Positions 4,727 to 19,683 of a stretch of DNA of 32,000 nucleotides are shown in pieces. Position numbers and translations under genes: made by a program. This DNA comes from Succinivibrio sp. Its GTDB lineage: Bacteria > Pseudomonadota > Gammaproteobacteria > Enterobacterales > Succinivibrionaceae. Every line of letters begins with the position of its first letter. The first letter of the stretch is position 1. The stretch lies in the NCBI GenBank assembly GCA_017469335.1, contig JAFUGP010000151.1:1422-33421 (forward strand). The letters run 5' to 3'. Under the pieces are notes generated by a model, which was given only the letters and a program-made list of their open reading frames with translations, did not search any database and was not told the origin of the DNA.

Positions 4727-5680
4727 TCATGACTGCGCCCCGGGACCGGCCGCCCGGCACAGCACTACGCCCGGCTCTTCCCTCAGGCGGGGGCCGTCCT
4801 CGGTCATCACGGGCTCGTATCTGGCCGTCGCCCGTCCCTGATTGGCCGAGTTCAGGGAATTAAGATACAGCACATACATGACGATCAGATCTCTTAGGCG
4901 GCGGTGGGCCTCGAACCTCTCATACATGGCCCGGCTCAGCTCTTCGCTAACCTCCCCGCTGAACTGCTTCCTGAACTGCTCTTTTAAACTCTCAATCTGC
5001 CGGTCATCTTCATCGAGCATGGCCTGCAAATCTTCGGCTTTGACGTTCAGCGTGATGAACTCGCTTAGCGCGGGATCGGCATCGTTCAGCGCCAGAAAGC
5101 TCAGGCGGAGCTGATCTCTGCCGCCGGTTTTGAAATCTTTACTGCCGTCGGTGACCGGAGCATCCACGTCAAGGCTGTTCAGGTGACCGTGATCCAACAT
5201 GACAAAACAGCCGTCGAAATGCTCGAGCACGCCCTGTTTACGGCTGCGCGGCAGCTCAATGTACATGGCCCAGTCCTGCAGTTTGGACAGCTCTAAAATC
5301 ACCGAACCGCGAACCTCAGACAGAGTAACCTTCTCCAACATGTCTGCCAATGATTCGTCGAGCCGATAGAACTTCTTGCCCACACTCCAAAGAACCACCG
5401 GCTTGAGCTGCGTGCGTTCTACTATCTGCTGTTGCAGGTTGGCGCACTCATCGTCATCTTCAGATTCGTTCATGACGGCCTCAAGCTTGTCGTTGCCCAG
5501 GGCCTCGTACCAGTCCTGCACTGTCAGGAAAACGGTCCCGTAGACCGGATTTCCCGATGCCAGTCCCCTGCTTCTGAGCTGCGCCATCCTCTCCATCACC
5601 CCGGGGATCTGTTTTACGGTAAGCTCGGCAAACTTCCTAACCAACTCCAGATTGCCGCTCTGATCATCGACTTTGGTCAT
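4727..5680 (-). CDS. Hypothetical acidic protein (317 aa)
   Basis: Long ORF with ATG at 5680, an upstream tggaga RBS and its own promoter-like element. No domain recognised. Confidence 0.7.
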   Translation of the reverse strand: MTKVDDQSGNLELVRKFAELTVKQIPGVMERMAQLRSRGLASGNPVYGTVFLTVQDWYEALGNDKLEAVMNESEDDDECANLQQQIVERTQLKPVVLWSVGKKFYRLDESLADMLEKVTLSEVRGSVILELSKLQDWAMYIELPRSRKQGVLEHFDGCFVMLDHGHLNSLDVDAPVTDGSKDFKTGGRDQLRLSFLALNDADPALSEFITLNVKAEDLQAMLDEDDRQIESLKEQFRKQFSGEVSEELSRAMYERFEAHRRLRDLIVMYVLYLNSLNSANQGRATARYEPVMTEDGPRLREEPGVVLCRAAGPGAQS

Positions 5681-5994: not shown

Positions 5995-6372
5995 TCAACT
6001 GTCTTTGAGTTTTTTCACCAACGCCTCCACAAAGGCATCAATAAGGGGAGAAAACTTTTGCCATATCAAAGCCAGAGTAGTAACCACAATTAGCCCCACA
6101 ATGATTATGGGAGTCCAGCCAATACCCAGTTTCTGCTCTAATCTTGCGCTGCTCAAGGCATAGTTTTCATAGACCATGTTGGTATAGTCCAAAGCATAGG
6201 GTGCCAGATAGGCCACCCCGATGCCCAACAGCACAACCATTCCCAAACCGAGCACCGCCGGCAGCACGTATTTGATGAGAGCCTTGGCAATCTGCAGTAC
6301 CAGTCCCAGCACAAACAACGCCACGAAGATGATGAGGCCCCACTCTACGAGCACTGCCAGCAACCTAAACAT
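5995..6372 (-). CDS. Small polytopic membrane protein (125 aa, ~3 TM plus a C-terminal amphipathic helix)
   Basis: ATG at 6372 is preceded by GAGGAGAG. Hydrophobic spans include LLAVLVEWGLIIFVALFVLGLVL, VLPAVLGLGMVVLLGIGVAYLA and TPIIIVGLIVVTTLALIW. It lies 140 nt downstream of the FtsZ-like gene. Confidence 0.7.
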   Translation of the reverse strand: MFRLLAVLVEWGLIIFVALFVLGLVLQIAKALIKYVLPAVLGLGMVVLLGIGVAYLAPYALDYTNMVYENYALSSARLEQKLGIGWTPIIIVGLIVVTTLALIWQKFSPLIDAFVEALVKKLKDS

Positions 6373-6512
6373 AATCTCTCCTCAGCAGCGTTTGCGCACA
6401 GGTTTGAGCGTCTAGGATGAGCGCTTCTCTCGCATAGAACTTAAAGCAGGCCCCGAGAATTACCGTGTGCAGTTCCTCAAACCTTCCCCGCTGCGACCTT
6501 TCTGTGCGCAGA

Positions 6513-7622
6513 TCAGCGCATACGTGCTGGTGCAGCTGCCAACTCGTCAAGAGCCCGGTTTAACCCGGTCATGATCACCGTCACTTCGATCTCGTCCTCA
6601 GCAAAATCCGGCATGAGTTTCATGCCGAACTTGCAGTCGGCATCTTCAGCGGCATAGGCATGCACGGCCGAACATACCTCCTCCCAGCGGTTGAGCGGGA
6701 AAGATGGACTGACCTTGACATTGACGATGAGACCGCTGGCCTTGCTGATATCTACCTTCTGCATGAGCGGGGAGAAGATGGCGTGTCTGACTGCTTCTTC
6801 CACCAGATTGGGACCTTTGCCATGACCTATGCCAATGACCGCACGGCCGCGGCCGCGCATCACCGTCTGCATATCCGCGAAATCGAGATTGATGAAGCCG
6901 CCCACCCCGACTATGGCACCGGCCACGCCGTTTACGGTGTTGATCACCGTCTCATCGACGGCCTCAAAGGCGCTGCGTACCGATACGCCCGGTCCCAAAC
7001 TCTTAAGCAGTTGGTTGTTGTCTACAACTATGAGGGTGTCGACCTGCCCCAGCAGATCCTCAACGCCGCGCTCGGCTATGAGCGTACGCCGGCGCCCTTC
7101 AAAATTAAAGGGCATGGTGGCTACACCGACCGTAAGGGCTCCGCTCTGCCGGGCCAATCCTGCGATGACCGGAGCCGCACCGGTACCGGTACCTCCGCCC
7201 ATGCCGGCGACCACGAAAATCAAATCAGTGCCGCGCACCAGCTCTTTGATCTCATCCAAGCATTCCTGCGCGGCCAGGCGACCCTGATTGGGATCGCAGC
7301 CCGAACCCAAGCCAGCGGTCAGATTTTTGCCTAACTGCACGCAGGTGGGGGCGCGACAGACCGAGAGAGCCGCAGCATCGGTATTGAGCGCCACCAAGGC
7401 AAGCTCGGTGAGCCTAAGTTCCGTGAGACGGTCGGCAAAGTGGCTCATCACGTTGCAGCCGCAGCCTCCCACACCTAACACCTTGATGACACAACGCGGA
7501 GAAGCGACAGGTGCCGGGGAGGTACTTTGGAGTGCTGCGGCAGACTGTTCTGCGCCAGGTGGGGTGGTGCCGGGACTGACCTGAGCTTGCAGGTCGGATA
7601 TTTGCTCGTCACGATCGCTCAT
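6513..7622 (-). CDS. ftsZ: FtsZ-family tubulin-like GTPase; stand-alone, without the C-terminal linker or conserved tail, probably a paralogue
   Basis: Diagnostic FtsZ motifs are present: IKVLGVGGCGCN, ALNTDAAAL, AGMGGGTGTGAAPVIA, PFNFEGRRR and the T7 loop NLDFAD. The preferred start is the ATG at 7622 (AGGA upstream); the longest ORF reaches 7664. The protein ends ...VIMTGLNRALDELAAAPARMR just after the globular domain. Confidence 0.9.
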   Translation of the reverse strand: MSDRDEQISDLQAQVSPGTTPPGAEQSAAALQSTSPAPVASPRCVIKVLGVGGCGCNVMSHFADRLTELRLTELALVALNTDAAALSVCRAPTCVQLGKNLTAGLGSGCDPNQGRLAAQECLDEIKELVRGTDLIFVVAGMGGGTGTGAAPVIAGLARQSGALTVGVATMPFNFEGRRRTLIAERGVEDLLGQVDTLIVVDNNQLLKSLGPGVSVRSAFEAVDETVINTVNGVAGAIVGVGGFINLDFADMQTVMRGRGRAVIGIGHGKGPNLVEEAVRHAIFSPLMQKVDISKASGLIVNVKVSPSFPLNRWEEVCSAVHAYAAEDADCKFGMKLMPDFAEDEIEVTVIMTGLNRALDELAAAPARMR

Positions 7623-8036
7623 AATGATTCCTATTCTTGTCAGGGAGAAGGTCCTTGCTGTCATTAGCCTGCAGCAGGTCCATCATCTTTTGACACGGCT
7701 AAACTTGCCCTCAGAAGAACCGCGTCTGCATGGTGCAAACCTAAGGCAGATTGCCGCGCCCGGAGGCAGTGCCGAAGGCAAATCAGCACAGCTCCGGACC
7801 TCGTGCCTCAAGTCTGATTGAGATTGTACAGGCAGCACCGGACAAAAAATCCCTTGCATCTCGCAAATACGCCACGGCCGGGAAAGTCGCCAGGCAGGCT
7901 TTGGGGCTGCCTGTCTCTTGCAAAGTGCCCCGCTCATGCCAAACGTGCACTTTGCCTGACAGCGCAAATTAAGTGCACTTATCTTCAAATCTCCCGGCAC
8001 TCTGTTTACACTTGTAGCTGTAGGGAGGCTTGGCAC

Positions 8037-8666
8037 ATGCAGACTGAGGATTATTTGCGCTTTCTCTGCCGGCAGATCCACACGGTGGTACTGGCAAGTT
8101 TGGATGAAAACCTGCTGCCGGTGACTGCAGCCGTTGATATCATGGAGGCACGCAAGGACAGCGTGTTGTTTCTGACCGCCACCGGCAAGGGTCTGTACCG
8201 CAGACTGTCTCAGCACCCTCAGGTGGCACTGACCGGTCTTAAAGGTGAGGACTCCTTGAGCACGGTGGCAATCTCGCTGCGCGGCAGGGTGCGGGAGCTG
8301 GGAGCTGACCTGATCCCGCATCTGTTCGAGCTCAATCCCTACATGGCTGAGATCTACCCCGGCGAAATCTCCCGCCAGGCTCTGACCGTCTTTGAACTCT
8401 ATGAGGGGAGCGGACAGTGGTTTGATCTCTCCAAAAAGCCCGTGGAACATCAGACGTTTGGTTTTGGCGGGATCACTGCCGTCACCTCGTGCCTCTACAC
8501 CATCACCTCCTTATGCGATGGCTGCGGCAAATGCCTGTCAGTCTGCCCGCAGCAGTGCATAGCAGGCAGCAGTCTGCCCTTTGTCATCAAGGCTCCGCAC
8601 TGTCTTAACTGCGGCAACTGTCTGAGTGTCTGCCCGAAAGGGGCGGTACAACGTCTTAGGGCGTAA
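8037..8666 (+). CDS. Pyridoxamine-5'-phosphate-oxidase-like (FMN-binding split-barrel) domain fused to a 2x[4Fe-4S] ferredoxin domain
   Basis: ATG at 8037 is preceded by GGGAGG; the ORF-track start at 7818 adds an implausible N-terminus. The N-terminal region looks like the PNPOx family (recall). The C-terminus carries two CxxCxxCxxxCP motifs, CDGCGKCLSVCP and CLNCGNCLSVCP. Confidence 0.85.
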   Translation: MQTEDYLRFLCRQIHTVVLASLDENLLPVTAAVDIMEARKDSVLFLTATGKGLYRRLSQHPQVALTGLKGEDSLSTVAISLRGRVRELGADLIPHLFELNPYMAEIYPGEISRQALTVFELYEGSGQWFDLSKKPVEHQTFGFGGITAVTSCLYTITSLCDGCGKCLSVCPQQCIAGSSLPFVIKAPHCLNCGNCLSVCPKGAVQRLRA

Positions 8667-8670
8667 AGTT

Positions 8671-9501
8671 ATGAGCGATGTCACCGCCCAGGATACCAAG
8701 GCCCTGAGTCAGGATGAACTGCTGTTGCGCCTCATCAGGCTGCTGTGCGCCGAAGATGAGCGCTATGCTGAGCTTGAGATCCCAACTTCCTTAGATGAGA
8801 GGCGCAACCTGCTGCGCGCCCTGCTCAATGTGCGCCCGCCGCGTCCTGCCGCCGCGCAGCTCATTCAATTGCAGGACAGCTACCTGCAGGAGCGCCTTAC
8901 AGAGCGCGGGGTGGTGGACGCGTTGCAACTGCCCTTACTGAGCCAGAGCATTGCCCTGTGGCAGGGTGATATCACCCGCCTTAGGGTCGGGGCCATCGTC
9001 AACGCCGCCAACGAACAGATGTTAGGCTGCTTCAGCCCGCTGCATAACTGCATCGACAACTGCATCCATACTTACGCGGGATTGCAGCTGCGCTTGGAGT
9101 GCTCGCGTCTTATGCAGAAGCTCAGAGCAAAGTTCGGATCGCAGTATGTCATGCCCACCGCCGCGCCGCTGCTGACGCCGGGCTACAATCTGCCGGCGTC
9201 CTGGATCATTCACATCACCGGCCCTATCGTCCTGGGAGCGCTCACCCCTCATTACGAGGCCCAGCTCATTGAGTGCTACCGCAACATTCTGTCGCTGTGC
9301 AGCGCACGGCGGATTTTGAGCGTCGCCATCTGCTGCATCTCCACCGGCGTGTTTCACTTCCCGCCGCAGCAGGCAGCGCAGCTGGCCGTTGCTACGGTGC
9401 AGCAGTATCTGCGCGAGCACCAGGAGATGCCCCTGAGAGTTATCTTCAACGTATTTTCCCATGAGGATTACCGCCGTTATGCCCAACTGCTTGAATCCTG
9501 A
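8671..9501 (+). CDS. Macrodomain protein (protein-ADP-ribose hydrolase type, sirtuin-linked)
   Basis: ATG at 8671 lies 4 nt after the upstream stop. The macrodomain core is IALWQGDITRLRVGAIVNAANEQMLGCF...HITGPIV, with an N-terminal helical extension as in the Staphylococcus/Streptococcus SirTM-associated macro proteins (recall). Confidence 0.88.
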   Translation: MSDVTAQDTKALSQDELLLRLIRLLCAEDERYAELEIPTSLDERRNLLRALLNVRPPRPAAAQLIQLQDSYLQERLTERGVVDALQLPLLSQSIALWQGDITRLRVGAIVNAANEQMLGCFSPLHNCIDNCIHTYAGLQLRLECSRLMQKLRAKFGSQYVMPTAAPLLTPGYNLPASWIIHITGPIVLGALTPHYEAQLIECYRNILSLCSARRILSVAICCISTGVFHFPPQQAAQLAVATVQQYLREHQEMPLRVIFNVFSHEDYRRYAQLLES

Positions 9502-10474
9502 GGACGGCTACCGCCTGAGCATACAGCTGGGTCTTAAGGCCCTGCACTCTTTAAGCGGGGAGCTGAGCTTTGCCGCCGCGCCTGCCGCAGACACCCTCCC
9601 CGCTCTCAAGACGGCACTGTCAGACTGCGAGGCCGTGGTGGTAGGTGCCGGTGCAGGACTGTCCACGGCGGCAGGATTTACCTACAGCGGGGCGCGCTTT
9701 GAGCGTTATTTCTCCGATTTCAAAGCCCGCTTTGGCATTGAGGATATATACTCAGGCGGCTTTTATCCATTCCCCAGAGCGGGGATACGCTGGGCCTGGT
9801 GGGCGCGGCATATCTACTTCAACCGCTATGTCACGGCCCCGCTGAAAGTCTACCCCACTCTTAGAGCCCTGCTTGAGGGCCGGGACTATTTTGTCATCAC
9901 CACCAATGTAGACCACCAGTTTCAGAAGTCAGGCTTTGCTAAAGAGCGGCTGTTCTACACCCAGGGAGACTATGGCCTCTTTCAGAGCGTAAACTCCTCC
10001 ATCAGGCAGACCTTTGACAATGAGGAGTGGACCATGCAGGCCATGGCCGCGCAGGGTTTTGTCAGTAACAGCCAAGGCGTTTTCGACCTGCCCGAGAACG
10101 CAGCGGTGAGCATGGAACTGCCTGAGGATATACTGCCGCGCTGCCCGCTGGACGGCAGCGAGGTGACCATGAACTTAAGGGCCGATGACAGTTTTGTGGA
10201 GGATGAGGGCTGGCAGCGGGCGTCGGCGGCCTACGCAAACTTCCTCACGGCGCATCGCCGCAGCCGGGTGCTGTATCTTGAGCTGGGTGTGGGCGCCAAT
10301 ACCCCGGTCATCATCAAATACCCTTTCTGGGCACTGACCCTGGCCAACCCCCGTGCCACCTACGCCTGCCTCAACCTCAAGGAGGCCTTTGCCCCGCAGG
10401 AGCTTGCCGCGCGCAGTATCTGTCTTGAAGGCGATGTGGCGCAAATCATCACACAGCTCACCGCATCCTCATGA
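9479..10474 (+). CDS. Class M sirtuin (SirTM-like, SIR2 family; predicted protein ADP-ribosyltransferase)
   Basis: The Rossmann NAD motif is VVVGAGAGLSTAAG and the sirtuin TTNVDHQF corresponds to TQNID. FYTQGDYG sits where deacylating sirtuins have HG. The gene overlaps the macro gene by 23 nt, or 41 nt if the start is at 9461. Confidence 0.85.
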   Translation: MPNCLNPEDGYRLSIQLGLKALHSLSGELSFAAAPAADTLPALKTALSDCEAVVVGAGAGLSTAAGFTYSGARFERYFSDFKARFGIEDIYSGGFYPFPRAGIRWAWWARHIYFNRYVTAPLKVYPTLRALLEGRDYFVITTNVDHQFQKSGFAKERLFYTQGDYGLFQSVNSSIRQTFDNEEWTMQAMAAQGFVSNSQGVFDLPENAAVSMELPEDILPRCPLDGSEVTMNLRADDSFVEDEGWQRASAAYANFLTAHRRSRVLYLELGVGANTPVIIKYPFWALTLANPRATYACLNLKEAFAPQELAARSICLEGDVAQIITQLTASS

Positions 10475-11272: not shown

Positions 11273-12430
11273 CTATGAGTGCGGCGCGCTCAAAAGTAAG
11301 GTGTGCAGCTGCCGCCTGGCCTCATCCTGTCCCTCACCTAAGCTCTGCAGCGCCTGCTCCCAGCTCTCACGCAGGCGGCTTTTGACCTCCACCAGCTCAC
11401 CTAGGAGCAGCCGGCGATAGTCATTGCGCCTGGCGAACATCCCGCCCAGCAGACCGCTTACGGATAAGGAGGAAGTGAGTGTGCGCAGATAATCCTGAAA
11501 GTCATTGCGCCAGCGCGGCATGGCACTCTCCTCGCTGAGATGGCCAATCCTCTGGGGATCAAAATCAAAACGCACCTGTGCGTAACCTAAGAGCACCTGC
11601 GAGCTGATGGCATTGATTTCGTCAAGTCTCCCCGTCACCGTCTGCAACAGCCGCGCTCCCAGACGCCCGAACTCCTCATTGATCCGGGCTACCAGACGCG
11701 CCTTGAGCTCATCGCCGTAGTGGGTGAAAATCCCCAGAGCACCGGTCTGGGCGTCATAGTAATCGAGGCAGGAGCGATAGGCTGCGGCAATGCCCGCCTC
11801 ACACTCCTGACGCGATAGATACTGCAACCTCAAGATGAGATTATCCCGCAGGTTCACTCCCATCAGACGCAGCAGTTCATCGCGCCCGAAGGTCTGTGTC
11901 TGCCGTCCCGAGCGCAGAGTCTCACTCACCGAGCCGGTCCTCAAGAGCTGCACCCCCTCCCCCAGCACCTCGCGCACGGTTTTTTCCAGCGCCTCCTGCT
12001 TTTCAGGCGCGGCTTTGTCACACTTGGTAAGCACGAAAATCATGCGGCAGCCCAGATGGGAAAATGGCGTGATGATTTTATCTTTCTCGTAGTCATCCAG
12101 GCGGCTGCGGGAGGCATCCAGACAGTAGATGAGCGAGTGAAACCAGTCGGCCACCGCCTGCTGTCCATTGCGCTGCATCTCATCGTGCAGCAGTCTCTCC
12201 CAGTCCAGCGCCTGCGCGCCCTCTTCCAGTCCCCAGCTGTCATAAGGGCAGATGAGCAGGTTGCGGTAGGCAAAAGGTTCTATAGGGTGCAGGCCGTAGG
12301 AGGTCACCGGTGCCCCGGCCCCGGAGCGCACCTTATCCTTAAGGCCGTAGAGATAGTTGATGAGCGAGGACTTGCCGGCTCCGGTCTTGCCCAGCACCAG
12401 CACATTGGTACGTATCAGTGCGCCGCTCAT
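11273..12430 (-). CDS. P-loop GTPase (TRAFAC, MMR_HSR1/YfjP-like) with a ~200-aa helical C-terminal domain
   Basis: G1 is VLGKTGAGKSSL, G2 is a candidate PVTS, G3 is DSWG and G4 is TKCD. The start is the ATG at 12430 or the GTG at 12442. It follows the upstream GTPase gene by 27-39 nt. Confidence 0.85.
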   Translation of the reverse strand: MSGALIRTNVLVLGKTGAGKSSLINYLYGLKDKVRSGAGAPVTSYGLHPIEPFAYRNLLICPYDSWGLEEGAQALDWERLLHDEMQRNGQQAVADWFHSLIYCLDASRSRLDDYEKDKIITPFSHLGCRMIFVLTKCDKAAPEKQEALEKTVREVLGEGVQLLRTGSVSETLRSGRQTQTFGRDELLRLMGVNLRDNLILRLQYLSRQECEAGIAAAYRSCLDYYDAQTGALGIFTHYGDELKARLVARINEEFGRLGARLLQTVTGRLDEINAISSQVLLGYAQVRFDFDPQRIGHLSEESAMPRWRNDFQDYLRTLTSSLSVSGLLGGMFARRNDYRRLLLGELVEVKSRLRESWEQALQSLGEGQDEARRQLHTLLLSAPHS

Positions 12431-12469
12431 GAGTGCCGTCACTCAAGCCAACCCGGCAGACCGCTACCC

Positions 12470-13657
12470 TCAGGACCGGTCCTGAGGATGACGGCCGGGT
12501 TTATCATCTTTTTGGTACTCCTCAAAGAGCTGTGCCACCATGGCCTTGAAGCGCTCGCCAAAGAGCTCGTTGATGGACTGGGTCTGCCCCTGCAGCCCGC
12601 GCAGGCACAGCTGCTCGCACACACGGTTGTAGGCCGCGCCCAGGGCGTAGGTCATGGCGCTAGCCACCGAGCCGTTGATGAGCCCGCCCGTGAGCGTGCC
12701 CAGCCCGGGGATGAGCTTGGCCAGATTGCCGGCTAAGGACTTGCCCACGTTCTGAGCAATGAGATTGACCAGCACCCCGCCGGCGAGCTCCTTTAGACTC
12801 TTGAGATCCCACACATAGGAGAGCCTGGCCAGCATGCTCAGCTGCGCGGAGGTCAGCAGTGCCGCGTCGGACATGGGAATGGGGGTAAAACCCACCAGGA
12901 AGGCCCCGGCCACCGTCTGTCTGACAATGCTCTCACCTTCCGTCAATTTACGTTCGATACCGCGACGCGAGGCAGCCATGAAGGACAGACGCCTGGACTC
13001 GTCGAGCATTTCCACTGTCCAGCTGTTTAACTGCTCCAGCCCGGGATTGAGCTGCAGGCGCTCATCGGTGCTGCTCTCGAAGATAAAGCAGCGCTCCTTA
13101 CCGTCGCCCTGAGGAGGCAGCGCGGCGTGGATGGCCTCGCCAAGTTCCTTGCAGCCGTTTTCGCTGGCCTCATCGACCTGGGTCAGAACAATGGCCACCG
13201 GCTTGTGCAACCGCTCGAACATCTCCACCAGGCTGGCATCAAGCGCCGTAAAACGCGCCACCGGGGCATTCACGCAGTACCAAACCACGTCGATGGGTTC
13301 ACCCTCATCCTCAAGTCTGGTGAGCAAGGTCTTGATGTCGGCGTTGAACCGACGCTGCTTGTCCTCGCCGGTCTCATAGCCGGGGGTGTCATAGAGCCTG
13401 AGATCCCCCACCTGCAACGGGGTCACGGCCGTGGTGACAGGTCTGCCGCCGCCCACCTCGGCCACCTCCCGTCCCAGCACCAGATTGCAGAGGGAGCTTT
13501 TGCCCGCCCCGGCCGCGCCTACCACCAGAATGCTGGCCTGCCCTATTTGGGCAACGTAATCCTGGTACAAAGTGCGGTAACGCTCGGCAATCTCCGCTTC
13601 ACTATCGGCTGCCGTCGACGCCTCAAGAACATCGGGGCTCTCCTTTGTGTCACTCAT
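12470..13657 (-). CDS. P-loop GTPase fused to a Gly-rich hydrophobic C-terminal module (DUF697-like)
   Basis: G1 is VGAAGAGKSSL, G2 is PVTT, G3 is DTPG and G4 is TQVD. The C-terminus reads FLVGFTPIPMSDAALL...LAGNLAKLIPGLGTLTGGLINGSVASAMTYALGAAYNRV. The DUF697 label is from recall. Confidence 0.85.
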   Translation of the reverse strand: MSDTKESPDVLEASTAADSEAEIAERYRTLYQDYVAQIGQASILVVGAAGAGKSSLCNLVLGREVAEVGGGRPVTTAVTPLQVGDLRLYDTPGYETGEDKQRRFNADIKTLLTRLEDEGEPIDVVWYCVNAPVARFTALDASLVEMFERLHKPVAIVLTQVDEASENGCKELGEAIHAALPPQGDGKERCFIFESSTDERLQLNPGLEQLNSWTVEMLDESRRLSFMAASRRGIERKLTEGESIVRQTVAGAFLVGFTPIPMSDAALLTSAQLSMLARLSYVWDLKSLKELAGGVLVNLIAQNVGKSLAGNLAKLIPGLGTLTGGLINGSVASAMTYALGAAYNRVCEQLCLRGLQGQTQSINELFGERFKAMVAQLFEEYQKDDKPGRHPQDRS

Positions 13658-13708
13658 AAAGACCTCGTTTTTTCATCAAAATCAGAAGATTTACCGCCTT
13701 TGCTGCGG

Positions 13709-14458
13709 TCAATTTGCACTTGGGTTCTCTGCTGTGGTGTGTTTTAGGCGCATAAAGGCTATCTGGACTACGCAGGGCAGAGTCACCCGGTAGGCAGGAC
13801 CTGCCAGATCATAGGCCGTCCACAACCCCGTCAGCGCCCAGCCCAGGGGACCGGCAAAGACCCCTAAGGCCCGCGACAAAGCGGCATTGCCGGCTAAGGT
13901 TAACCCCGAGCCCAACAGCATTCTGGACAAGGTATTGGCCACCAGGGACGCCGCCTGCAGCGCCAAGGCGCTGTTGAGCCTTACGCCCAACTGCAAAGCT
14001 GCGGTTACCGCCTGCGCTGTGACGGCGCAGTTTTGGAGGTTCAATGAGGAGATGAGCTCTTTTAGATCCTGCTCATCCATTTTCTCCACCGCCGCGATCA
14101 AAAGGCTCTCGAGCAGCCGCCGCTCCAGCACCGGTACACTCTCGTCATCTTCATGTTTGACCTTGGCCTTATCCAGCACGTCGCGGACTATTTCAGCATA
14201 CAGCACCCCGCCGCCGCGCCACAGGTTCATCAGGGAATGTCCGCCGAAACACTGCAGTTCCTCGGCCAGACGCTGCCAGTAGCGGCTGTGCTCACCAGGG
14301 CAGTTTTTATACTCATCACTGGAGGTAAGGGTCTGGGTGAGACGTTCACGGCGCTCCTCCCCGGAGCCGTCATAGACCAGATAGCCAAACAAAGGCTCCA
14401 GCTCAGCGTCACTTAGGGTGCCCAGAAAGGCCAGATCAGGATCCTCGCGATAGCTCAT
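13709..14458 (-). CDS. yaaW: YaaW-like protein (UPF0174 / DUF3944 family)
   Basis: EDPDLAFL...SRYWQRLAEELQCFGGHSLMNLWRGGGVLYAEIVRDVLDKAKVK...AGPAYRVTLPCVVQIAFMRL parallels my recollection of E. coli YaaW (RRNWQLIAGELQHFGGDSIANKLRGHGKLYRAILLDV...AYRVTIPAVLQIACLRR). Confidence 0.8.
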   Translation of the reverse strand: MSYREDPDLAFLGTLSDAELEPLFGYLVYDGSGEERRERLTQTLTSSDEYKNCPGEHSRYWQRLAEELQCFGGHSLMNLWRGGGVLYAEIVRDVLDKAKVKHEDDESVPVLERRLLESLLIAAVEKMDEQDLKELISSLNLQNCAVTAQAVTAALQLGVRLNSALALQAASLVANTLSRMLLGSGLTLAGNAALSRALGVFAGPLGWALTGLWTAYDLAGPAYRVTLPCVVQIAFMRLKHTTAENPSAN

Positions 14459-15925: not shown

Positions 15926-17482
15926 TTATCGACATAGACTGTTCATAATGGCGGTGATTTTGGCATTGATCTTAGCTGCATCCTTGAGTTCGTAATACTT
16001 CAGAATTTCTTGAATATCACCGTCTTCTAACTCTTTTAAATTAGGGATCTTCAATTTACGCAGATGCTGACTCTGCCAGCGCACAAATCCGCCGTTCATC
16101 TGATTGGTTACGGCCGCCAACTGTTCCCTGACAAAATCCGACATGAGAAAAGCTGCCAGGATCTTGAGATCTGTGGGGGAGTTACCGACCACATAGTAGA
16201 TGTTATGCAAAGGATAATACTCGCCTTCGTCGACAAAAATGTAGGTGTTACCCGATATATCCGGCAGCAGGATTTTTGGCTGAGAGCGCAGTTGCGGATT
16301 TATTCTGTCTATGGTTTTATACCATCTGTCAGGCGCTTTTTGGGCAACGTGTCTTGAGGATAACCGTTCACGGTAAGCGGATAAATAAGCCTCTGCCTTG
16401 GGATAAGCCGCGAGGTCCAGCAACGAGCCATCCGGGTTGTAGGGGTTCAGCAGGAATTCACCCTGCCACTTGAGTTCGTTGCCGCGCAGATCCCTAGCAT
16501 TTATACCCGGCAAAATAAGTGATGGCTCAACTAGCTGAGGGAGTTGAGGTGAAATAAACACCGAATCAGCGCCCGTGGCAACTCCTACCCCGATTTTAAA
16601 TCCTTGACTCTCTATGGTGCTGAGGCAAGGATCTGCTTCCCGGACATTAAACATCGCAGACCAATCGGCATCTTCAGGCACCTTCTTGCTTATTGCCTTC
16701 AGCTCTGCCAGACTCTCTGCCTCTGCGCAGTCCGAGTAGACAAAAGTCTCCCGGCAGCGATCGGCGTCTATCACGGTGATGGCAGGATAAGCTAGAACAT
16801 CCGACAAAAAAGCCTTGGCACGCTCTAAATTTATGAGACTTCTTAGTTGATAATGTTGGGCAACTAATTTCCGCAGTTTCCGTCCATATTCATTTCTGAG
16901 CCATCTGTTTGAGCAGATAAAGCAGTGCCGTCCACCCGGGGCCAGCATGGAGAGAGATTTTTCAAAGAACGGGACATACAAATCACAGCGGTAGTGAAAA
17001 GTCTCGAAGTTGTCCCGGCAAAATTTAAGGATATCCTTTGGAATATGCTCGTAGCGGATATAAGGGGGATTACCGACCACAATGTCCACCATGCTCTGTG
17101 GGGCGTGCAGAAAATCCTCAACCACAATGGTATCGGCCGCAGTGTCTATACCCAAACTCTGCAATCTTTCTTGGCACAGTCTGACTTTGAGGGGATCTAT
17201 CTCATAGGCCCGAACATTAATGTTGAAGACAGTCTCTGCATCAAAATCAAAGCGCCTTGCTGACTCCTGCAATCTGTTGGCTATTTCCACCAGAAATTCA
17301 CCGTCACCGCAGGAGGGCTCCAGCACACGGACCGCACTTAAGTTGCGATCGGAGGTATAGCCGGCCTTATCAAGCATGAACCGTACCACGGCCGGGGAAG
17401 TAAAAACATCGCAGTGCCCCCGGGAGCGCCTGTGGCCCGGCAATTTAACTGCGCTTACGGGCGGCACTGCTAAGGTATCCAT
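15926..17482 (-). CDS. Type II N6-adenine DNA methyltransferase (gamma class, Eco57I/TaqI-like with a C-terminal target-recognition domain)
   Basis: Motif X is DVFTSPAVVRFML, motif I is VLEPSCGDGEFL and motif IV is VVGNPPYIRY. The gene overlaps the endonuclease gene by 38 nt. Local GC is clearly lower than in the flanks. Confidence 0.92.
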   Translation of the reverse strand: MDTLAVPPVSAVKLPGHRRSRGHCDVFTSPAVVRFMLDKAGYTSDRNLSAVRVLEPSCGDGEFLVEIANRLQESARRFDFDAETVFNINVRAYEIDPLKVRLCQERLQSLGIDTAADTIVVEDFLHAPQSMVDIVVGNPPYIRYEHIPKDILKFCRDNFETFHYRCDLYVPFFEKSLSMLAPGGRHCFICSNRWLRNEYGRKLRKLVAQHYQLRSLINLERAKAFLSDVLAYPAITVIDADRCRETFVYSDCAEAESLAELKAISKKVPEDADWSAMFNVREADPCLSTIESQGFKIGVGVATGADSVFISPQLPQLVEPSLILPGINARDLRGNELKWQGEFLLNPYNPDGSLLDLAAYPKAEAYLSAYRERLSSRHVAQKAPDRWYKTIDRINPQLRSQPKILLPDISGNTYIFVDEGEYYPLHNIYYVVGNSPTDLKILAAFLMSDFVREQLAAVTNQMNGGFVRWQSQHLRKLKIPNLKELEDGDIQEILKYYELKDAAKINAKITAIMNSLCR

Positions 17483-18161
17483 AAAGAGAGGCCAGAAAAC
17501 TGCTTATGGAAGTTTCCTCTCCCAGATCTCCATAAGATCGATCAGCACGAGTCCACAGCACACTCGCGCAGTTGTAGTGACGTTCTCTTACCAGCTTTTG
17601 ACAGAGAATTTGGTAGCGCTGAAGATAGGTTGCTCCGACAAATTCAGCTAGAACAGGGAAGTGAGGCTCGTGATTGCTCACAGGGCGCTCTGAATCGTCA
17701 TCACGTCCTACCACCATCAGCCAGCCTAACCAGGGGGCAAGCTGCTCCGGAAACAAACCTTCGCGAAAAGCCGTCCATAAATCAACAGCCGAGCCCAACG
17801 CCTCCTCAGCACGATTGTTGAAATTGTTCCCGTAGGAGCCAATCTGGGATTTGAGCTCAATGGTTGCAAGCAGTCTGCCTCCACCATCAATGATAATCAT
17901 GTCCCACTCTTTGGATGAGCGAAAATACCCGGGCAGATAATTGTTGTCGGTTATGACTTGCGCTGGAGCAACACCCGCTTCAACTGCCACTGTTTTGAGA
18001 AGACTGACAAAGCCATTGAGCTGTTTGCCACCCAGAACTGCACCTCGGTTTGTCAGATCGATGCTGTCCTCACGCTGACTTTCCCGCCTATCCCAGAACG
18101 CCGTTACAGCCTGTGATATTTGTGCTGCAAAACCAGTGCCTGATTTGGGTGCGTATGCCAT
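17445..18161 (-). CDS. Type II restriction endonuclease (PD-(D/E)XK); possibly XhoI/PaeR7I family
   Basis: The PD-(D/E)XK-like core is DMIIIDGGGRLLATIELKSQ. IGSYGNNFNNRAEEALGSAVDLWTAFREG matches my recollection of the XhoI-family signature. The gene is operonic with, and overlaps, the m6A methyltransferase gene. Confidence 0.75.
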   Translation of the reverse strand: MAYAPKSGTGFAAQISQAVTAFWDRRESQREDSIDLTNRGAVLGGKQLNGFVSLLKTVAVEAGVAPAQVITDNNYLPGYFRSSKEWDMIIIDGGGRLLATIELKSQIGSYGNNFNNRAEEALGSAVDLWTAFREGLFPEQLAPWLGWLMVVGRDDDSERPVSNHEPHFPVLAEFVGATYLQRYQILCQKLVRERHYNCASVLWTRADRSYGDLGEETSISSFLASLYGYLSSAARKRS

Positions 18162-18411
18162 ACCTGATTACCTCGCCAAAACTTTATGGCTACGGACCTC
18201 GTTTCTGCGCAAACACTTCGCACAAACTGCCTGCCAAAAGCTCCCGTATGATTATCGCACACCTGCCCGTACCAAATTGTGCTCTTGTGTACCTCAGTAC
18301 AATCGTTTTTGAGGCAGGAATCTGCCTGTAATACAGACACACCCCAGATTCCTTCTGTCAGTTGAGTTATGCTGTGCCGGTAGCATGCAAAATTCACAAG
18401 CGGAGAGCAAC

Positions 18412-19683
18412 ATGCGCCCCGACATAAAAGCTTTTCTCGAACAATTACATTACGAACTTCCAAAAATGGGACTGGCCCCACAGGTGCACAGCTATGTGCT
18501 GCTGTATCTGGCCTGGCAGTGCGCCCTTAAAATCTCCGGTCCTAATTTCTCACTTAAAAAGCTCGGTGCGCTGGTAAGCACCCTCAAAAAACCCGCCACC
18601 TCACGGTACCTGACATCGCAAGCAAACCAGCGCGGCAGCGCACTTGCCATCCTGCTCAAAGGGCTGGATCAGTGCTCTCCTTGTATAGATCGCCCGGAGA
18701 GTTACGGCGAACTGTGGGATCTGTTCTACCGCGTCCCCGGCACCCATATGCAGCCTGACGATCAGGCCGTGCTGGAGTATCTGGCCTTGCAGATTGAAGA
18801 ACATGACGCCCCGTTCTTCAAAGAAGCCCTGACCTCTTTGAGTCCTGAATTCATCAGCACTCTGCCCAGGCCTCCTGCAAGCGCGCAATTTAGTCTCGCT
18901 ACCGAAGACTACACCCGGCAGATCTGGTGTAGTTTGGCCGCCAGGTTTCTCAAATTACAACAAGGCATGCAGATCTACAATCCCTGCTGCGGCACCGGCA
19001 ATTTTGCTCTGGCCGCAGCCGCGGTCTGCCCACAGGCGCACACCGTCAGCGTGGACTGTGACGAGCTGATGACCAATATCTGCGCCATGCGCGCCCAAGC
19101 AGCCGGCATTGAAACACAAACTTACTGCGCTGACATGTTCTCGACACTGTCAAAAGGTCAGATTGTGCGCTATGAGCGTGTGTTCTGCATGCCGCCCACG
19201 CAACTGCCTCTTCATACCTACGACAATTACCTCAGATCGATAGGACTGCAGCCCAGCACTCGCCATGTCATCGCAGAAGATGCCTATTTATTGCAGATCT
19301 TAGCCTCCCTGAAAAGTTCAGGGCGCGCCGTGGTCATTTTAGACTTGAGCTCCTGCGGGGATGAGATTTTTTGCGCCCTCATTGCACAGGGATTACTGGA
19401 GGCCGTGATCCCGCTTCCGTGCTTTACGGGCGATGCCCGCCCTGTCTGCGACATGCTGGTAATAAGCCGCGGCAATCGCAGCGTGCGCACTTACAGTCTT
19501 GAACAGGCGCTGAGACTGCCTTTGTACACTGTACCTAATCCGCAAGATTACGAGACCTTAGCTGCTCTCAGTGACCGACAGTTACGCTATGGCTCCTCAC
19601 GTATGACTAATCAACAATTGCTCAGATCAGACAACCTAGATCAAGAACTGTGTCAGACGACCAACGGCAGCCCTGCCGAATAA
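18412..19683 (+). CDS. HsdM-like N6-DNA-methylase homologue with a degenerate catalytic motif; orphan, with no HsdS or HsdR
   Basis: ATG at 18412 is preceded by GGAGAG (the ORF track starts at 18385). Motif I is IYNPCCGTGNFAL (18979-19005). The motif IV position reads VFCMPPTQL (CMPPT at 19186-19200) instead of (N/D)PP(Y/F/W). The HsdM-like C-terminal part is GRAVVILDL...LLEAVIPLP. Confidence 0.8.
   Translation: MRPDIKAFLEQLHYELPKMGLAPQVHSYVLLYLAWQCALKISGPNFSLKKLGALVSTLKKPATSRYLTSQANQRGSALAILLKGLDQCSPCIDRPESYGELWDLFYRVPGTHMQPDDQAVLEYLALQIEEHDAPFFKEALTSLSPEFISTLPRPPASAQFSLATEDYTRQIWCSLAARFLKLQQGMQIYNPCCGTGNFALAAAAVCPQAHTVSVDCDELMTNICAMRAQAAGIETQTYCADMFSTLSKGQIVRYERVFCMPPTQLPLHTYDNYLRSIGLQPSTRHVIAEDAYLLQILASLKSSGRAVVILDLSSCGDEIFCALIAQGLLEAVIPLPCFTGDARPVCDMLVISRGNRSVRTYSLEQALRLPLYTVPNPQDYETLAALSDRQLRYGSSRMTNQQLLRSDNLDQELCQTTNGSPAE

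What the first reader, a model, noticed from the sequence alone, without database searches (positions are those of the whole stretch)
5995..7664. A stand-alone FtsZ-family gene lacks the C-terminal tail, lies outside a dcw context and is followed by a small polytopic membrane protein
**Seen in the sequence.**
- The protein keeps all FtsZ GTP-binding and T7-loop motifs: GVGGCGCN, GGGTGTG, NLDFAD.
- It stops right after the globular domain (...VIMTGLNRALDELAAAPARMR). There is no disordered linker and no C-terminal FtsA/ZipA-binding peptide.
- Instead, a ~40-aa Pro/Ala/Ser/Thr/Gln-rich segment sits at the N-terminus (MSDRDEQISDLQAQVSPGTTPPGAEQSAAALQSTSPAPVASPR).
- The flanks are not ftsQ/ftsA/lpxC. 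Upstream is a 370-nt divergent spacer. A 125-aa, ~3-TM protein with an amphipathic C-terminus lies 140 nt downstream.

**Established knowledge.**
- In most Proteobacteria ftsZ lies in the dcw cluster, and its C-terminal peptide is required for membrane tethering.
- Tail-less FtsZ paralogues are known, for example FtsZm of magnetotactic bacteria and Agrobacterium FtsZ1.

**Inference.**
- This is an accessory FtsZ-like cytoskeletal element.
- The adjacent membrane protein is a candidate dedicated anchor.
Basis: partly seen in the sequence, partly recalled or inferred. Interest (0 to 1): 0.7.

Follow-up and report, generated by a model that had tools for sequence, protein, structure and literature searches.

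The report
Extra tail-less FtsZ copy in Succinivibrio
This is a real, selectively maintained extra copy of the cell-division protein FtsZ that lacks the membrane-tethering tail, in a rumen Succinivibrio genome that also keeps a normal ftsZ; such truncated extra copies are a known kind, and the idea that the neighbouring small membrane protein is its anchor is untested.

Summary
Window 6513-7622 (minus strand) encodes a 369-aa FtsZ with intact GTP-binding and T7 motifs, a disordered 44-aa N-terminus, and no linker or C-terminal peptide. A 125-aa three-TM protein lies 140 nt downstream.

It is not the sole ftsZ. The same NCBI MAG encodes a canonical 445-aa FtsZ ending ...LWDLPPILRNKSE, in murC-ftsQ-ftsA-ftsZ order (MBQ9274520 to MBQ9274517). 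The window copy is MBQ9275052.

The copy belongs to the Succinivibrionaceae FtsZ radiation (200/200 bootstraps) but sits on a long branch: 51-54% identity to every relative, with no orthologue in 5.8 billion proteins. It is under strong purifying selection (31 synonymous versus 3 non-synonymous differences between two strains). The membrane gene shows 5 versus 0.

Succinivibrionaceae commonly carry two ftsZ genes in the dcw cluster, and in several species the second is tail-less.

The anchor idea has no comparative support. The membrane protein's only detectable homologue follows an unrelated 321-aa protein.

Most likely this is a lineage-specific accessory FtsZ that co-assembles with the housekeeping FtsZ. 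It is a new member of a known kind.

The parts
6513..7622 (-). FtsZL: 369-aa tail-less FtsZ paralogue (GenBank MBQ9275052.1), stop codon included
   Evidence: Pfam and TIGR00065 hits. It is an exact match to P0001. AF2 gives an FtsZ fold. pN/pS is 0.03 between two strains.
7491..7622 (-). N-terminal extension, aa 1-44, rich in Pro/Ala/Ser/Thr/Gln and predicted disordered
   Evidence: pLDDT is 40-51 over residues 1-40. Of the family N-terminal peptide MSDF(R/K)VE, only 'MSD' is retained.
6999..7487 (-). GTPase (Tubulin/FtsZ) domain with T1 GVGGCGCN, T4 GGGTGTG and a 4-aa insert (RLTELRLTEL) between H1 and S2
   Evidence: Pfam PF00091 and the family alignment.
6561..6848 (-). FtsZ C-terminal subdomain; the T7 loop NLDFAD lies just upstream (aa 245-250)
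   Evidence: Pfam PF12327. The T7/H8 segment GFINLDFADMQTVMRGRG is nearly identical to the genome's own FtsZ1.
6516..6560 (-). Last 15 aa (NRALDELAAAPARMR): a short predicted helix; no linker and no FtsA-binding peptide
   Evidence: No C-terminal-peptide remnant exists downstream in any frame.
6373..6512 (-). 140-nt spacer between FtsZL and the membrane gene
   Evidence: No terminator-like site. The RNA fold is not better than shuffles, z = -0.46. No Rfam hit.
5995..6372 (-). mem125: 125-aa three-TM protein with a cytoplasm-facing amphipathic, charged C-terminal helix (MBQ9275051.1)
   Evidence: Hydropathy and charge distribution. GAGGAG ribosome-binding site. 5 synonymous and 0 non-synonymous differences between strains. 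One homologue only.
7623..8036 (.). 414-nt divergent spacer to the PNPOx/4Fe-4S - Macro - SIR2-like operon
   Evidence: That operon also occurs on its own in an unrelated contig.
4727..5680 (-). 317-aa gene on the same strand, 314 nt downstream of mem125; probably a separate transcription unit of mobile-element type
   Evidence: The precomputed Pfam hit to AcrVA2-like is weak. phrog_6160 scores 4e-7. A promoter-like site lies at 5741-5712. No relatives in plasmid or viral sets.

Best explanation
FtsZL is a lineage-specific accessory paralogue of the Succinivibrionaceae cell-division protein FtsZ. It keeps a complete, selectively constrained GTPase/polymerisation core but has lost the disordered linker and the C-terminal FtsA-binding peptide. 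The genome's housekeeping FtsZ1 (445 aa, with tail) remains in murC-ftsQ-ftsA-ftsZ. Shown: paralogy, loss of the tail, an intact catalytic and interface motif set, and purifying selection. Inferred: FtsZL binds and hydrolyses GTP and co-assembles with FtsZ1 through the conserved T7/H8 and nucleotide-pocket surfaces. Because it cannot bind FtsA, it lowers the density of tethers in mixed filaments or changes their turnover, and so tunes or restrains division, as proposed for truncated FtsZ paralogues of Rhizobiaceae. The co-oriented 125-aa membrane protein is probably co-expressed and is the only local candidate partner. Whether the two touch is unknown.
For: - **Same genome, canonical ftsZ present.** GenBank accessions run MBQ9274516 (AAA_14), MBQ9274517 (FtsZ, 445 aa...GLWDLPPILRNKSE), MBQ9274518 (FtsA), MBQ9274519 (FtsQ), MBQ9274520 (MurC). 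The window genes run MBQ9275051 (mem125), MBQ9275052 (FtsZL), MBQ9275053 (4Fe-4S protein). All are named Succinivibrio sp. MAG and lie 535 numbers apart. The locus tag IJ228_09565 implies more than 1900 genes before this point.
- **dcw context.** A one-residue variant of FtsZ1 lies in mraY-murD-ftsW-murG-murC-ftsQ-ftsA-ftsZ. That locus is the best non-self tetranucleotide match to the window (r = 0.914, GC 0.58 versus 0.56).
- **Origin.** FtsZL groups with Succinivibrionaceae FtsZs in 200/200 neighbour-joining bootstraps. It shares clade-specific motifs: GCDPN(K/Q)GR, VMRGRG, NFP..(K/R)WEE.C and E(D/E)ADCKFGM.
- **Divergence.** It is 51-54% identical to every relative, including its own FtsZ1.
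- **Core retained.** 87 of 112 family-conserved columns are kept, and most changes are conservative. T4, T7, T2 and T5 are intact. The fold is confident.
- **Selection.** 31 synonymous versus 3 non-synonymous differences between two strains, pN/pS 0.03. This is lower than for most neighbouring genes.
- **Family precedent.** Tail-less second FtsZs of 348-351 aa sit directly after FtsZ1 in the dcw cluster of several Succinivibrio and Succinatimonas species, with no membrane gene nearby.
- **Literature.** Truncated FtsZ paralogues outside dcw are known. Overexpressed A. tumefaciens FtsZ1 blocks division (bioRxiv 10.1101/2025.09.29.679267).
Against: - Co-assembly with FtsZ1 is inferred from motif conservation and analogy only. 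No interaction prediction or experiment was possible.
- 51% identity to FtsZ1 is low. Helix H7, H1-S2 (4-aa insert), H3 and H5 are strongly diverged, and T1 carries G->C at the position of E. coli G21. The protein may have become a homopolymer or lost polymerisation.
- The placement as sister to all family members (175/200) may reflect long-branch attraction, so the donor lineage and age are unresolved.
- Assignment to the same MAG rests on accession contiguity, composition and naming. I did not inspect the assembly record, and a MAG can contain mis-binned contigs.
- The locus lies among restriction-modification, JukA-like and mobile-element genes. That context fits a conflict-related role as well.
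Confidence: 0.55

Rival explanations
1. Self-contained membrane-anchored filament system. FtsZL forms its own filaments, and the cytoplasmic amphipathic C-terminal helix of mem125 tethers them to the inner membrane. The function would be separate from the Z ring, such as membrane remodelling, shape or positioning.
For: - The genes share a strand, with a 140-nt gap, no terminator-like site, no significant RNA structure and a good ribosome-binding site.
- Both genes are restricted to this species and both are under strong purifying selection.
- The predicted topology is N-out/C-in. This puts the most conserved part of mem125, W(Q/K)K..PL(I/L)DA...(I/V)K..K, in the cytoplasm.
- FtsZL has diverged strongly from FtsZ1 on several surface helices.
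Against: - The only homologue of mem125 (P0132, 30-33% identity) follows an unrelated 321-aa acidic protein next to an IS3-type transposase end, not an FtsZ.
- Tail-less FtsZ2 copies elsewhere in the family have no membrane neighbour.
- No known FtsZ-binding motif is recognisable in mem125, and it hits no family in Pfam, NCBIfam, PHROGs or PADLOC.
- With two family members, no co-variation test is possible.
Confidence: 0.2
2. Conflict module of a defence or mobile-element island. A decoy or sensor FtsZ is paired with a small three-TM effector. It would either sense phage-encoded FtsZ inhibitors or phage tubulin and trigger membrane damage, or be carried by an element to manipulate host division.
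For: - The neighbourhood holds an XhoI-type restriction-modification pair (REase 3e-73, MTase 1e-137) and a JukA homologue (5e-67) followed by two GTPase-like genes.
- It also holds a SIR2-like/Macro operon, an AcrVA2-like gene, an extra HU and Sel1 proteins.
- Just beyond the window lie KfrA_N, a group II intron reverse transcriptase, an IS21 pair and a SLFN/AlbA_2 gene.
- mem125 has the size and topology of a class I holin-like effector: three TM segments, N-out/C-in, charged C-terminus (the comparison is from memory).
- Its homologue pairs with a different upstream protein beside an IS. This is the variable-partner plus constant-effector layout common in defence systems.
Against: - Neither gene hits PADLOC. 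FtsZL hits PHROGs only weakly (PhuZ 2e-4).
- No relatives were found in IMG/VR. Plasmid matches are ordinary ftsZ genes at no more than 44% identity.
- In a second strain the region abuts pdxB and purT, so it is chromosomal.
- No integrase, tRNA or flanking repeat delimits an element around the pair.
- Guilt by association is the only support.
Confidence: 0.12
3. FtsZL is the sole division FtsZ of a rearranged genome.
For: None beyond its non-dcw position.
Against: - A canonical FtsZ with a C-terminal peptide lies in murC-ftsQ-ftsA-ftsZ in the same MAG.
- FtsZ1 orthologues across the family are about 85% identical in the core even between distant members (low-GC S. dextrinosolvens versus a high-GC lineage), whereas FtsZL is 51-54% identical to all of them.
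- All 56 Succinivibrionaceae loci recovered carry dcw-type FtsZ genes.
Confidence: 0.01
4. FtsZL is a decaying, non-functional duplicate.
For: - It sits on a long branch, has lost the tail and carries an unusual T1 loop.
Against: - The 369-codon frame is intact in at least eight contigs from several samples.
- pN/pS is 0.03.
- All catalytic motifs are retained.
Confidence: 0.03

Closest known systems
Truncated FtsZ paralogues of Rhizobiaceae/Phyllobacteraceae (A. tumefaciens FtsZ1, S. meliloti FtsZ2)
   Same: - An extra ftsZ outside the dcw cluster, alongside a full-length essential ftsZ.
- It has an N-terminal peptide and the GTPase domain but lacks the C-terminal linker and conserved peptide.
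- It is maintained by selection.
- A proposed role is tuning division; overexpressed FtsZ1 blocks division (10.1101/2025.09.29.679267).
   Different: - Independent origin: FtsZL nests with gammaproteobacterial Succinivibrionaceae FtsZs (200/200).
- It is confined to one species-level lineage rather than being an old family-wide paralogue.
- It has a longer disordered N-terminus, a co-oriented three-TM gene, and a restriction-modification and mobile-element-rich neighbourhood.
Tail-less FtsZ2 (348-351 aa) of other Succinivibrio and Succinatimonas species (found here)
   Same: - Same family radiation.
- Same architecture: MSD... N-terminal peptide plus a globular core ending soon after TG(I/L)S.
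- It coexists with a tailed FtsZ1.
   Different: - Those copies sit between ftsZ1 and lpxC inside the dcw cluster, without a membrane gene.
- FtsZL is only 46-50% identical to them and grouped with them in few bootstraps (6/200).
- FtsZL lies elsewhere in the chromosome. This species shows no second ftsZ within 10 kb downstream of ftsZ1.
FtsZm of magnetotactic bacteria, and plant/cyanobacterial-lineage FtsZ1 versus FtsZ2 (from memory)
   Same: A tail-less FtsZ coexists with a tailed one and is thought to co-assemble with it.
   Different: - FtsZm lies in the magnetosome island with a defined organelle context.
- Plastid FtsZ1 is an ancient, universally retained partner.
- Neither context applies here, and none of this was tested with the tools.
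TubZ/PhuZ and FtsZl-1/FtsZl-2 families
   Same: They are members of the tubulin/FtsZ superfamily encoded outside dcw, some on mobile elements or with membrane-associated partners (PMC2875224).
   Different: - FtsZL is a bona fide FtsZ. It scores above the TIGR00065 cut-off and is 41-43% identical to solved FtsZs.
- Tubulin_2 scores 16.7 bits against a cut-off of 27, and PhuZ reaches only 2e-4.
- No vWA, OmpA or TubR-like neighbours are present.

Membership tests
FtsZ family (TIGR00065; Pfam Tubulin + FtsZ_C) | Profile score above the curated cut-off | tested here: met
   TIGR00065 scores 316.8 bits against 295.2. PF00091 scores 149.7 against 33 and PF12327 scores 65.7 against 27.
FtsZ family (TIGR00065; Pfam Tubulin + FtsZ_C) | GTP-binding loops T1-T6 and the catalytic T7 loop N.DFAD | tested here: met
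   GGGTGTG, NTD, PF.FEG and NLDFAD are present. T1 is GVGGCGCN, with G->C at two positions.
FtsZ family (TIGR00065; Pfam Tubulin + FtsZ_C) | Two-subdomain FtsZ fold | tested here: met
   AF2 mean pLDDT is 86.8. Foldseek against PDB gives E 2.5e-43, rmsd 1.3 A and target-normalised TM-score 0.95-0.97 to K. pneumoniae and E. coli FtsZ.
Canonical division FtsZ | Disordered C-terminal linker plus a conserved C-terminal peptide that binds FtsA/ZipA | tested here: not met
   The protein ends 15 aa after the core. Relatives end ...LW(D/N)LPPILR(S/N)KSE. No remnant is present downstream.
Canonical division FtsZ | Position in the dcw cluster after ftsQ-ftsA | tested here: not met
   The flanks are a PNPOx/4Fe-4S - Macro - SIR2 operon and mem125, a 317-aa gene and HU. 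The genome's other ftsZ holds the dcw position.
Truncated accessory FtsZ paralogues (kind defined by A. tumefaciens FtsZ1 / S. meliloti FtsZ2) | Coexists with a full-length ftsZ in the same genome | tested here: met
   MBQ9274517.1 (445 aa with C-terminal peptide) and MBQ9275052.1 have contiguous-range accessions in one MAG. Composition matches.
Truncated accessory FtsZ paralogues (kind defined by A. tumefaciens FtsZ1 / S. meliloti FtsZ2) | GTPase core retained, C-terminal linker and peptide missing, gene outside dcw | tested here: met
Truncated accessory FtsZ paralogues (kind defined by A. tumefaciens FtsZ1 / S. meliloti FtsZ2) | Common descent with the alphaproteobacterial paralogues | tested here: not met
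   FtsZL clusters with Succinivibrionaceae FtsZs in 200/200 bootstraps. It is an independent duplication.
Truncated accessory FtsZ paralogues (kind defined by A. tumefaciens FtsZ1 / S. meliloti FtsZ2) | Co-localises or co-assembles with the canonical FtsZ | not testable with these tools
   Only motif-level conservation of T7/H8 and pocket loops with FtsZ1 is available.
TubZ / PhuZ | Match to Tubulin_2 or PhuZ profiles, with a partition or phage context | tested here: not met
   PF13809 scores 16.7 bits against a cut-off of 27. phrog_4733 reaches 2e-4 over 120 residues. No TubR-like or phage genes are present.
Known anti-phage defence systems (PADLOC 2.0) | Profile match of either gene | tested here: not met
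   No hit for FtsZL or mem125, even at E <= 1.
Dedicated FtsZ membrane anchor (FtsA/ZipA/SepF-like role) for mem125 | Conserved linkage with an FtsZ gene, or a recognisable FtsZ-binding domain | tested here: not met
   The single homologue, P0132, is linked to a non-FtsZ 321-aa protein. No family hit was found.

The most novel reading that the evidence does not exclude
FtsZL and mem125 form an autonomous two-gene module: a repurposed FtsZ plus a small three-TM protein. The module would be unrelated to the Z ring. It could be a minimal membrane-anchored FtsZ cytoskeleton tethered through an integral membrane protein rather than through the C-terminal peptide. Alternatively it could be a defence or element-conflict system in which a decoy FtsZ senses phage factors that target FtsZ or tubulin and activates the membrane protein.
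Probability: 0.15. Interest if true: 0.8.

Novelty: new member of a known kind. Interest (0 to 1): 0.45.

Why it matters
Truncated FtsZ paralogues are known from a few lineages, and their function is still debated. This locus adds an independent gammaproteobacterial case. It has clear evidence of selection, and its divergence from the housekeeping copy is extreme, which gives a natural experiment in what an FtsZ core can do without its tail.

The by-product matters more. Succinivibrionaceae, abundant rumen and gut bacteria, appear to have expanded ftsZ as a rule: two genes in the dcw cluster, several tail variants, and extra copies elsewhere. The paper library searched holds no description of this. 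The family could therefore be a tractable system for studying division of labour among bacterial FtsZ paralogues, comparable to plastid FtsZ1/FtsZ2.

Tried and rejected
- **Genome scan.** I scanned 185,579 species-representative genomes with peptide patterns that FtsZL itself matches. This gave 56 Succinivibrionaceae loci but not the window's genome. The MAG's own FtsZ1 is at most 77% identical to any FtsZ1 recovered by that scan, so its species was not among the genomes the scan recovered. I therefore could not read the whole genome, and absence from the representatives says nothing about accessory status.
- **Search for an empty site.** I queried JGI metagenomes with the adjacent PNPOx/4Fe-4S protein. 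Only 53-54% relatives in unrelated contigs came back. They show that operon is independent of FtsZL.
- **Mobile-element origin.** IMG/VR scans with FtsZL and the 317-aa protein found nothing. tblastn against plasmids found no relative of the 317-aa protein, and FtsZL matched only ordinary ftsZ genes at no more than 44% identity.
- **Pseudogenised tail.** No C-terminal-peptide or linker remnant exists downstream in any frame.
- **Regulatory RNA or terminator in the spacers.** Nothing above background.
- **Recombination between AAA_14/DUF4143 genes.** Such genes sit next to both ftsZ loci and might have moved a former ftsZ2. The two genes are only 30-50% identical, so this has no support.
- **AF2 of mem125 without an alignment.** pTM was 0.38, so I did not use the model for fold search.
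- **Biopython bootstrap.** It timed out, and I redid it with numpy distances.
Full report
**1. What is in the sequence**

The minus strand carries an ORF at 6513..7664. GenBank and the gene callers start it at the ATG at 7622 (MSDRDEQ...). That start has AGGA 8 nt upstream, whereas the upstream ATG has no such site. The product is 369 aa.

It matches Pfam Tubulin (1.5e-43) and FtsZ_C (4.7e-18). It scores 316.8 bits on the NCBIfam equivalog TIGR00065 ftsZ, just above the cut-off of 295.2. Every top PDB match by sequence is an FtsZ.

An AlphaFold2 model built on 30 relatives is confident over residues 45-354. It superposes on K. pneumoniae and E. coli FtsZ at 1.3 A. Residues 1-44 are predicted disordered. 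After the last strand only 15 residues remain, forming a low-confidence helix.

No linker or C-terminal peptide is present. None is hidden downstream in another frame.

The 125-aa gene (5995..6372) lies 140 nt downstream on the same strand and has a GAGGAG ribosome-binding site. It has three hydrophobic segments. Lysines between segments 1 and 2 and a lysine-rich amphipathic C-terminal helix suggest an N-out/C-in topology.

- The divergent spacer is 414 nt from the annotated start.
- An N-terminal peptide is common to all FtsZs of this bacterial family, so it did not replace the tail.

**2. Whose gene it is, and is there another ftsZ**

The protein is identical to MBQ9275052.1 from a Succinivibrio sp. 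MAG. The membrane protein is MBQ9275051.1, locus tag IJ228_09565. The divergent 4Fe-4S protein is MBQ9275053.1.

A search with a related FtsZ1, followed by accession look-ups, found MBQ9274517.1. This is a 445-aa FtsZ with a Pro/Ala-rich linker, ending ...GLWDLPPILRNKSE. Its neighbours are:
- MBQ9274518.1, FtsA
- MBQ9274519.1, FtsQ
- MBQ9274520.1, MurC
- MBQ9274516.1, an AAA_14 ATPase

A one-residue variant of this FtsZ lies in mraY-murD-ftsW-murG-murC-ftsQ-ftsA-ftsZ on a 50.9-kb contig.

The two accession runs are 535 numbers apart. The locus tag shows that more than 1900 genes precede FtsZL in the submission, so both fall within one genome's accession block. The dcw contig is also the best non-self tetranucleotide match to the window among some 70 loci (r = 0.914, GC 0.58 versus 0.56).

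Assignment to one genome rests on accession order, naming and composition. I could not open the assembly record itself.

**3. Where the copy comes from**

In 5.8 billion clustered proteins, the only sequences above 54% identity are the protein itself and a 3-residue variant. The next hits, at 51-54%, are all Succinivibrionaceae FtsZs. Other Gammaproteobacteria reach 43-45%.

A scan of 185,579 species-representative genomes used two peptide patterns that FtsZL matches. It returned 56 loci, all Succinivibrionaceae, and none was FtsZL. The MAG's own species was not among the genomes that scan recovered: its FtsZ1 is at most 77% identical to any FtsZ1 recovered.

FtsZL groups with the family in 200/200 neighbour-joining bootstraps, usually as sister to all other members (175/200). 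Given its long branch, that position may be an artefact. It shares clade-specific motifs with FtsZ1: GCDPN(K/Q)GR, VMRGRG, NFP..(K/R)WEE.C and E(D/E)ADCKFGM.

It is 51% identical to its own genome's FtsZ1 at the protein level and 67% identical over 725 nt of DNA.

**4. Is it functional**

A second strain, on a 43.9-kb Logan contig, has the same gene order. Between the two strains:
- FtsZL shows 31 synonymous and 3 non-synonymous differences (pN/pS 0.03).
- mem125 shows 5 and 0.
- Most neighbouring genes lie at 0.07-0.43.

FtsZL keeps 87 of the 112 columns that are at least 93% conserved across the family, and most of the 25 changes are conservative. The T7/H8 segment and the pocket loops are close to those of FtsZ1. 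H7, H3, H5 and the H1-S2 loop (with a 4-aa RLTEL repeat insert) have diverged.

The gene is therefore a constrained, probably GTP-dependent FtsZ. It is not a decaying duplicate.

**5. Family background**

Looking up relatives showed that Succinivibrionaceae usually carry two ftsZ genes in the dcw cluster, in the order ftsA-ftsZ1-ftsZ2-lpxC. FtsZ1 is conserved, at about 85% identity in the core between low-GC S. dextrinosolvens and a high-GC lineage.

FtsZ2 varies between species:
- 401-422 aa with a C-terminal peptide
- 456-504 aa with a C-terminal peptide
- 553-604 aa with the variant tail ELPPILNRRIR
- 348-351 aa with no tail, in several species, followed directly by lpxC and with no membrane gene

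A further full-length copy lies outside dcw in another lineage.

In the window's species, no ftsZ2 or lpxC lies within 10 kb downstream of ftsZ1. An AAA_14 gene and a VgrG/Hcp cluster are there instead. FtsZL could thus be a relocated, fast-evolved ftsZ2, but it grouped with ftsZ2 lineages in only a few bootstraps.

A full-text search found no paper that discusses ftsZ in this family. Truncated FtsZ paralogues outside dcw are documented elsewhere. A. tumefaciens FtsZ1 blocks division when overexpressed.

**6. The membrane protein**

The word-indexed search found no relative. A full HMMER pass over 1.84 billion representatives found one: P0132, 122 aa, 30-33% identical over the whole length, E = 9e-7. 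The C-terminal helix is its best-conserved part.

P0132 lies 76 nt downstream of a 321-aa acidic protein. That protein is not FtsZ-like, is unrelated to the window's 317-aa gene and hits no family. The pair follows the end of an IS3-type transposase gene.

Linkage of this membrane-protein family to FtsZ is therefore not conserved in the only case available. What remains in favour of a partnership is adjacency, probable co-transcription (no terminator, no structured spacer), shared restriction to one species and joint constraint.

**7. Neighbourhood**

The region is chromosomal: in the second strain it abuts pdxB and purT. It is also rich in variable genes:
- An XhoI-type restriction-modification pair and another methylase.
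- A JukA homologue (5e-67) followed by two GTPase-like genes. JukA is described as a jumbo-phage sensor with variable effectors in bioRxiv 10.1101/2022.09.17.508391.
- A PNPOx/4Fe-4S - Macro - SIR2-like operon, which also occurs on its own elsewhere.
- An AcrVA2-like gene, a DUF7230 gene, an extra HU and large Sel1 proteins.
- Just beyond the window: KfrA_N, a group II intron reverse transcriptase, an IS21 pair and a SLFN/AlbA_2 gene.

Neither FtsZL nor mem125 matches any PADLOC model. No viral or plasmid relative was found. No tRNA, integrase or flanking repeat delimits an element around the pair.

**8. Verdict**

FtsZL is a new, independently arisen member of a known kind, the truncated accessory FtsZ paralogue.

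The best-supported mechanism is co-assembly with the tailed FtsZ1. That would dilute FtsA tethers or alter ring dynamics. This step is inferred from conserved interface motifs and from analogy, and it is not shown.

The dedicated-anchor model and a conflict-module model remain open at lower probability. The sole-ftsZ and pseudogene readings are excluded.

The most interesting outcome is the family-wide multiplicity of ftsZ genes in Succinivibrionaceae.

Noticed in passing
L003, L009, L016, L023-L077 (dcw loci of Succinivibrionaceae genomes): Most species carry two ftsZ genes in the dcw cluster, in the order ftsA-ftsZ1-ftsZ2-lpxC. FtsZ2 occurs in at least four forms, including a tail-less 348-351-aa form and a 553-604-aa form ending ELPPILNRRIR. 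No paper in the searched library discusses ftsZ in this family.
   Followed up: partly
L049 3930-4976 (CAMNEW010000140.1; protein P0228): The order is murC-ftsQ-ftsA-ftsZ-lpxC. The only ftsZ on this 5.6-kb contig is a 348-aa FtsZ1-like protein without a linker or C-terminal peptide. The same protein is seen in NCBI, Logan and ENA. It may be a dcw FtsZ that lacks the FtsA-binding tail.
   Followed up: no
L012 6375-10565 and L076 (Ca. Avisuccinivibrio pullicola DVOQ01000093.1): A full-length FtsZ with a C-terminal peptide lies outside dcw. It is flanked by an FtsK_gamma-domain protein and two ORFs of 320-332 aa with no family hit. One of them begins AAIIGVGRGGCELASRL, reminiscent of a degenerate FtsZ/tubulin T1 region.
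   Followed up: no
Alignment of Succinivibrionaceae FtsZs: Besides the C-terminal peptide, the linkers share a second short motif, (N/G)GFF. P0035 (370 aa) keeps this motif but has no C-terminal peptide. The N-terminal peptide MSDF(R/K)VE(S/A)VSN is conserved across FtsZ1 and many FtsZ2 copies.
   Followed up: no
window 11273-14458 (minus strand): A JukA homologue (PADLOC 5e-67; DUF3944 plus a Cbp3-like domain) is followed on the same strand by two GTPase-like genes (MMR_HSR1/DUF697; weak LeoA/LeoBC hits). No JukB was detected. This may be a JukA-plus-GTPase variant of the jumbo-phage defence system.
   Followed up: partly
window 15926-19683: An XhoI-type restriction endonuclease (3e-73) overlaps a 518-aa Eco57I/TaqI-like methyltransferase (1e-137). 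A divergent 432-aa N6-methylase with a weak mad2 hit lies next to them.
   Followed up: no
window 8037-10474 (plus strand): A PNPOx/4Fe-4S - Macro - SIR2-like three-gene operon. The first two genes recur together in an unrelated low-GC metagenome contig, L080.
   Followed up: partly
L018 1-1764 (and L019-L021): The only homologue of the 125-aa membrane protein forms a pair with a 321-aa acidic protein of no known family. The pair lies directly after the 3' end of an IS3-type transposase gene. All four contigs are about 2.1 kb or shorter.
   Followed up: partly
L078 11579-21168: In the window's species, ftsZ1 is not followed by lpxC. An AAA_14/DUF4143 ATPase and a VgrG / DUF6931 / Hcp (type VI secretion) cluster follow instead. 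A distantly related AAA_14 gene borders the FtsZL region in one strain (L001) but not in another (L079).
   Followed up: partly
window 7415-7444 (FtsZL aa 65-74): The 4-aa insert relative to all other FtsZs is part of a direct peptide repeat, RLTEL-RLTEL. It looks like a small tandem duplication between helix H1 and strand S2.
   Followed up: no
L006 1-8000 (same 63.8-kb contig, beyond window end): Just outside the window lie KfrA_N, a group II intron reverse transcriptase, an IS21-type transposase with IstB, a SLFN/AlbA_2 protein and RNase T.
   Followed up: no
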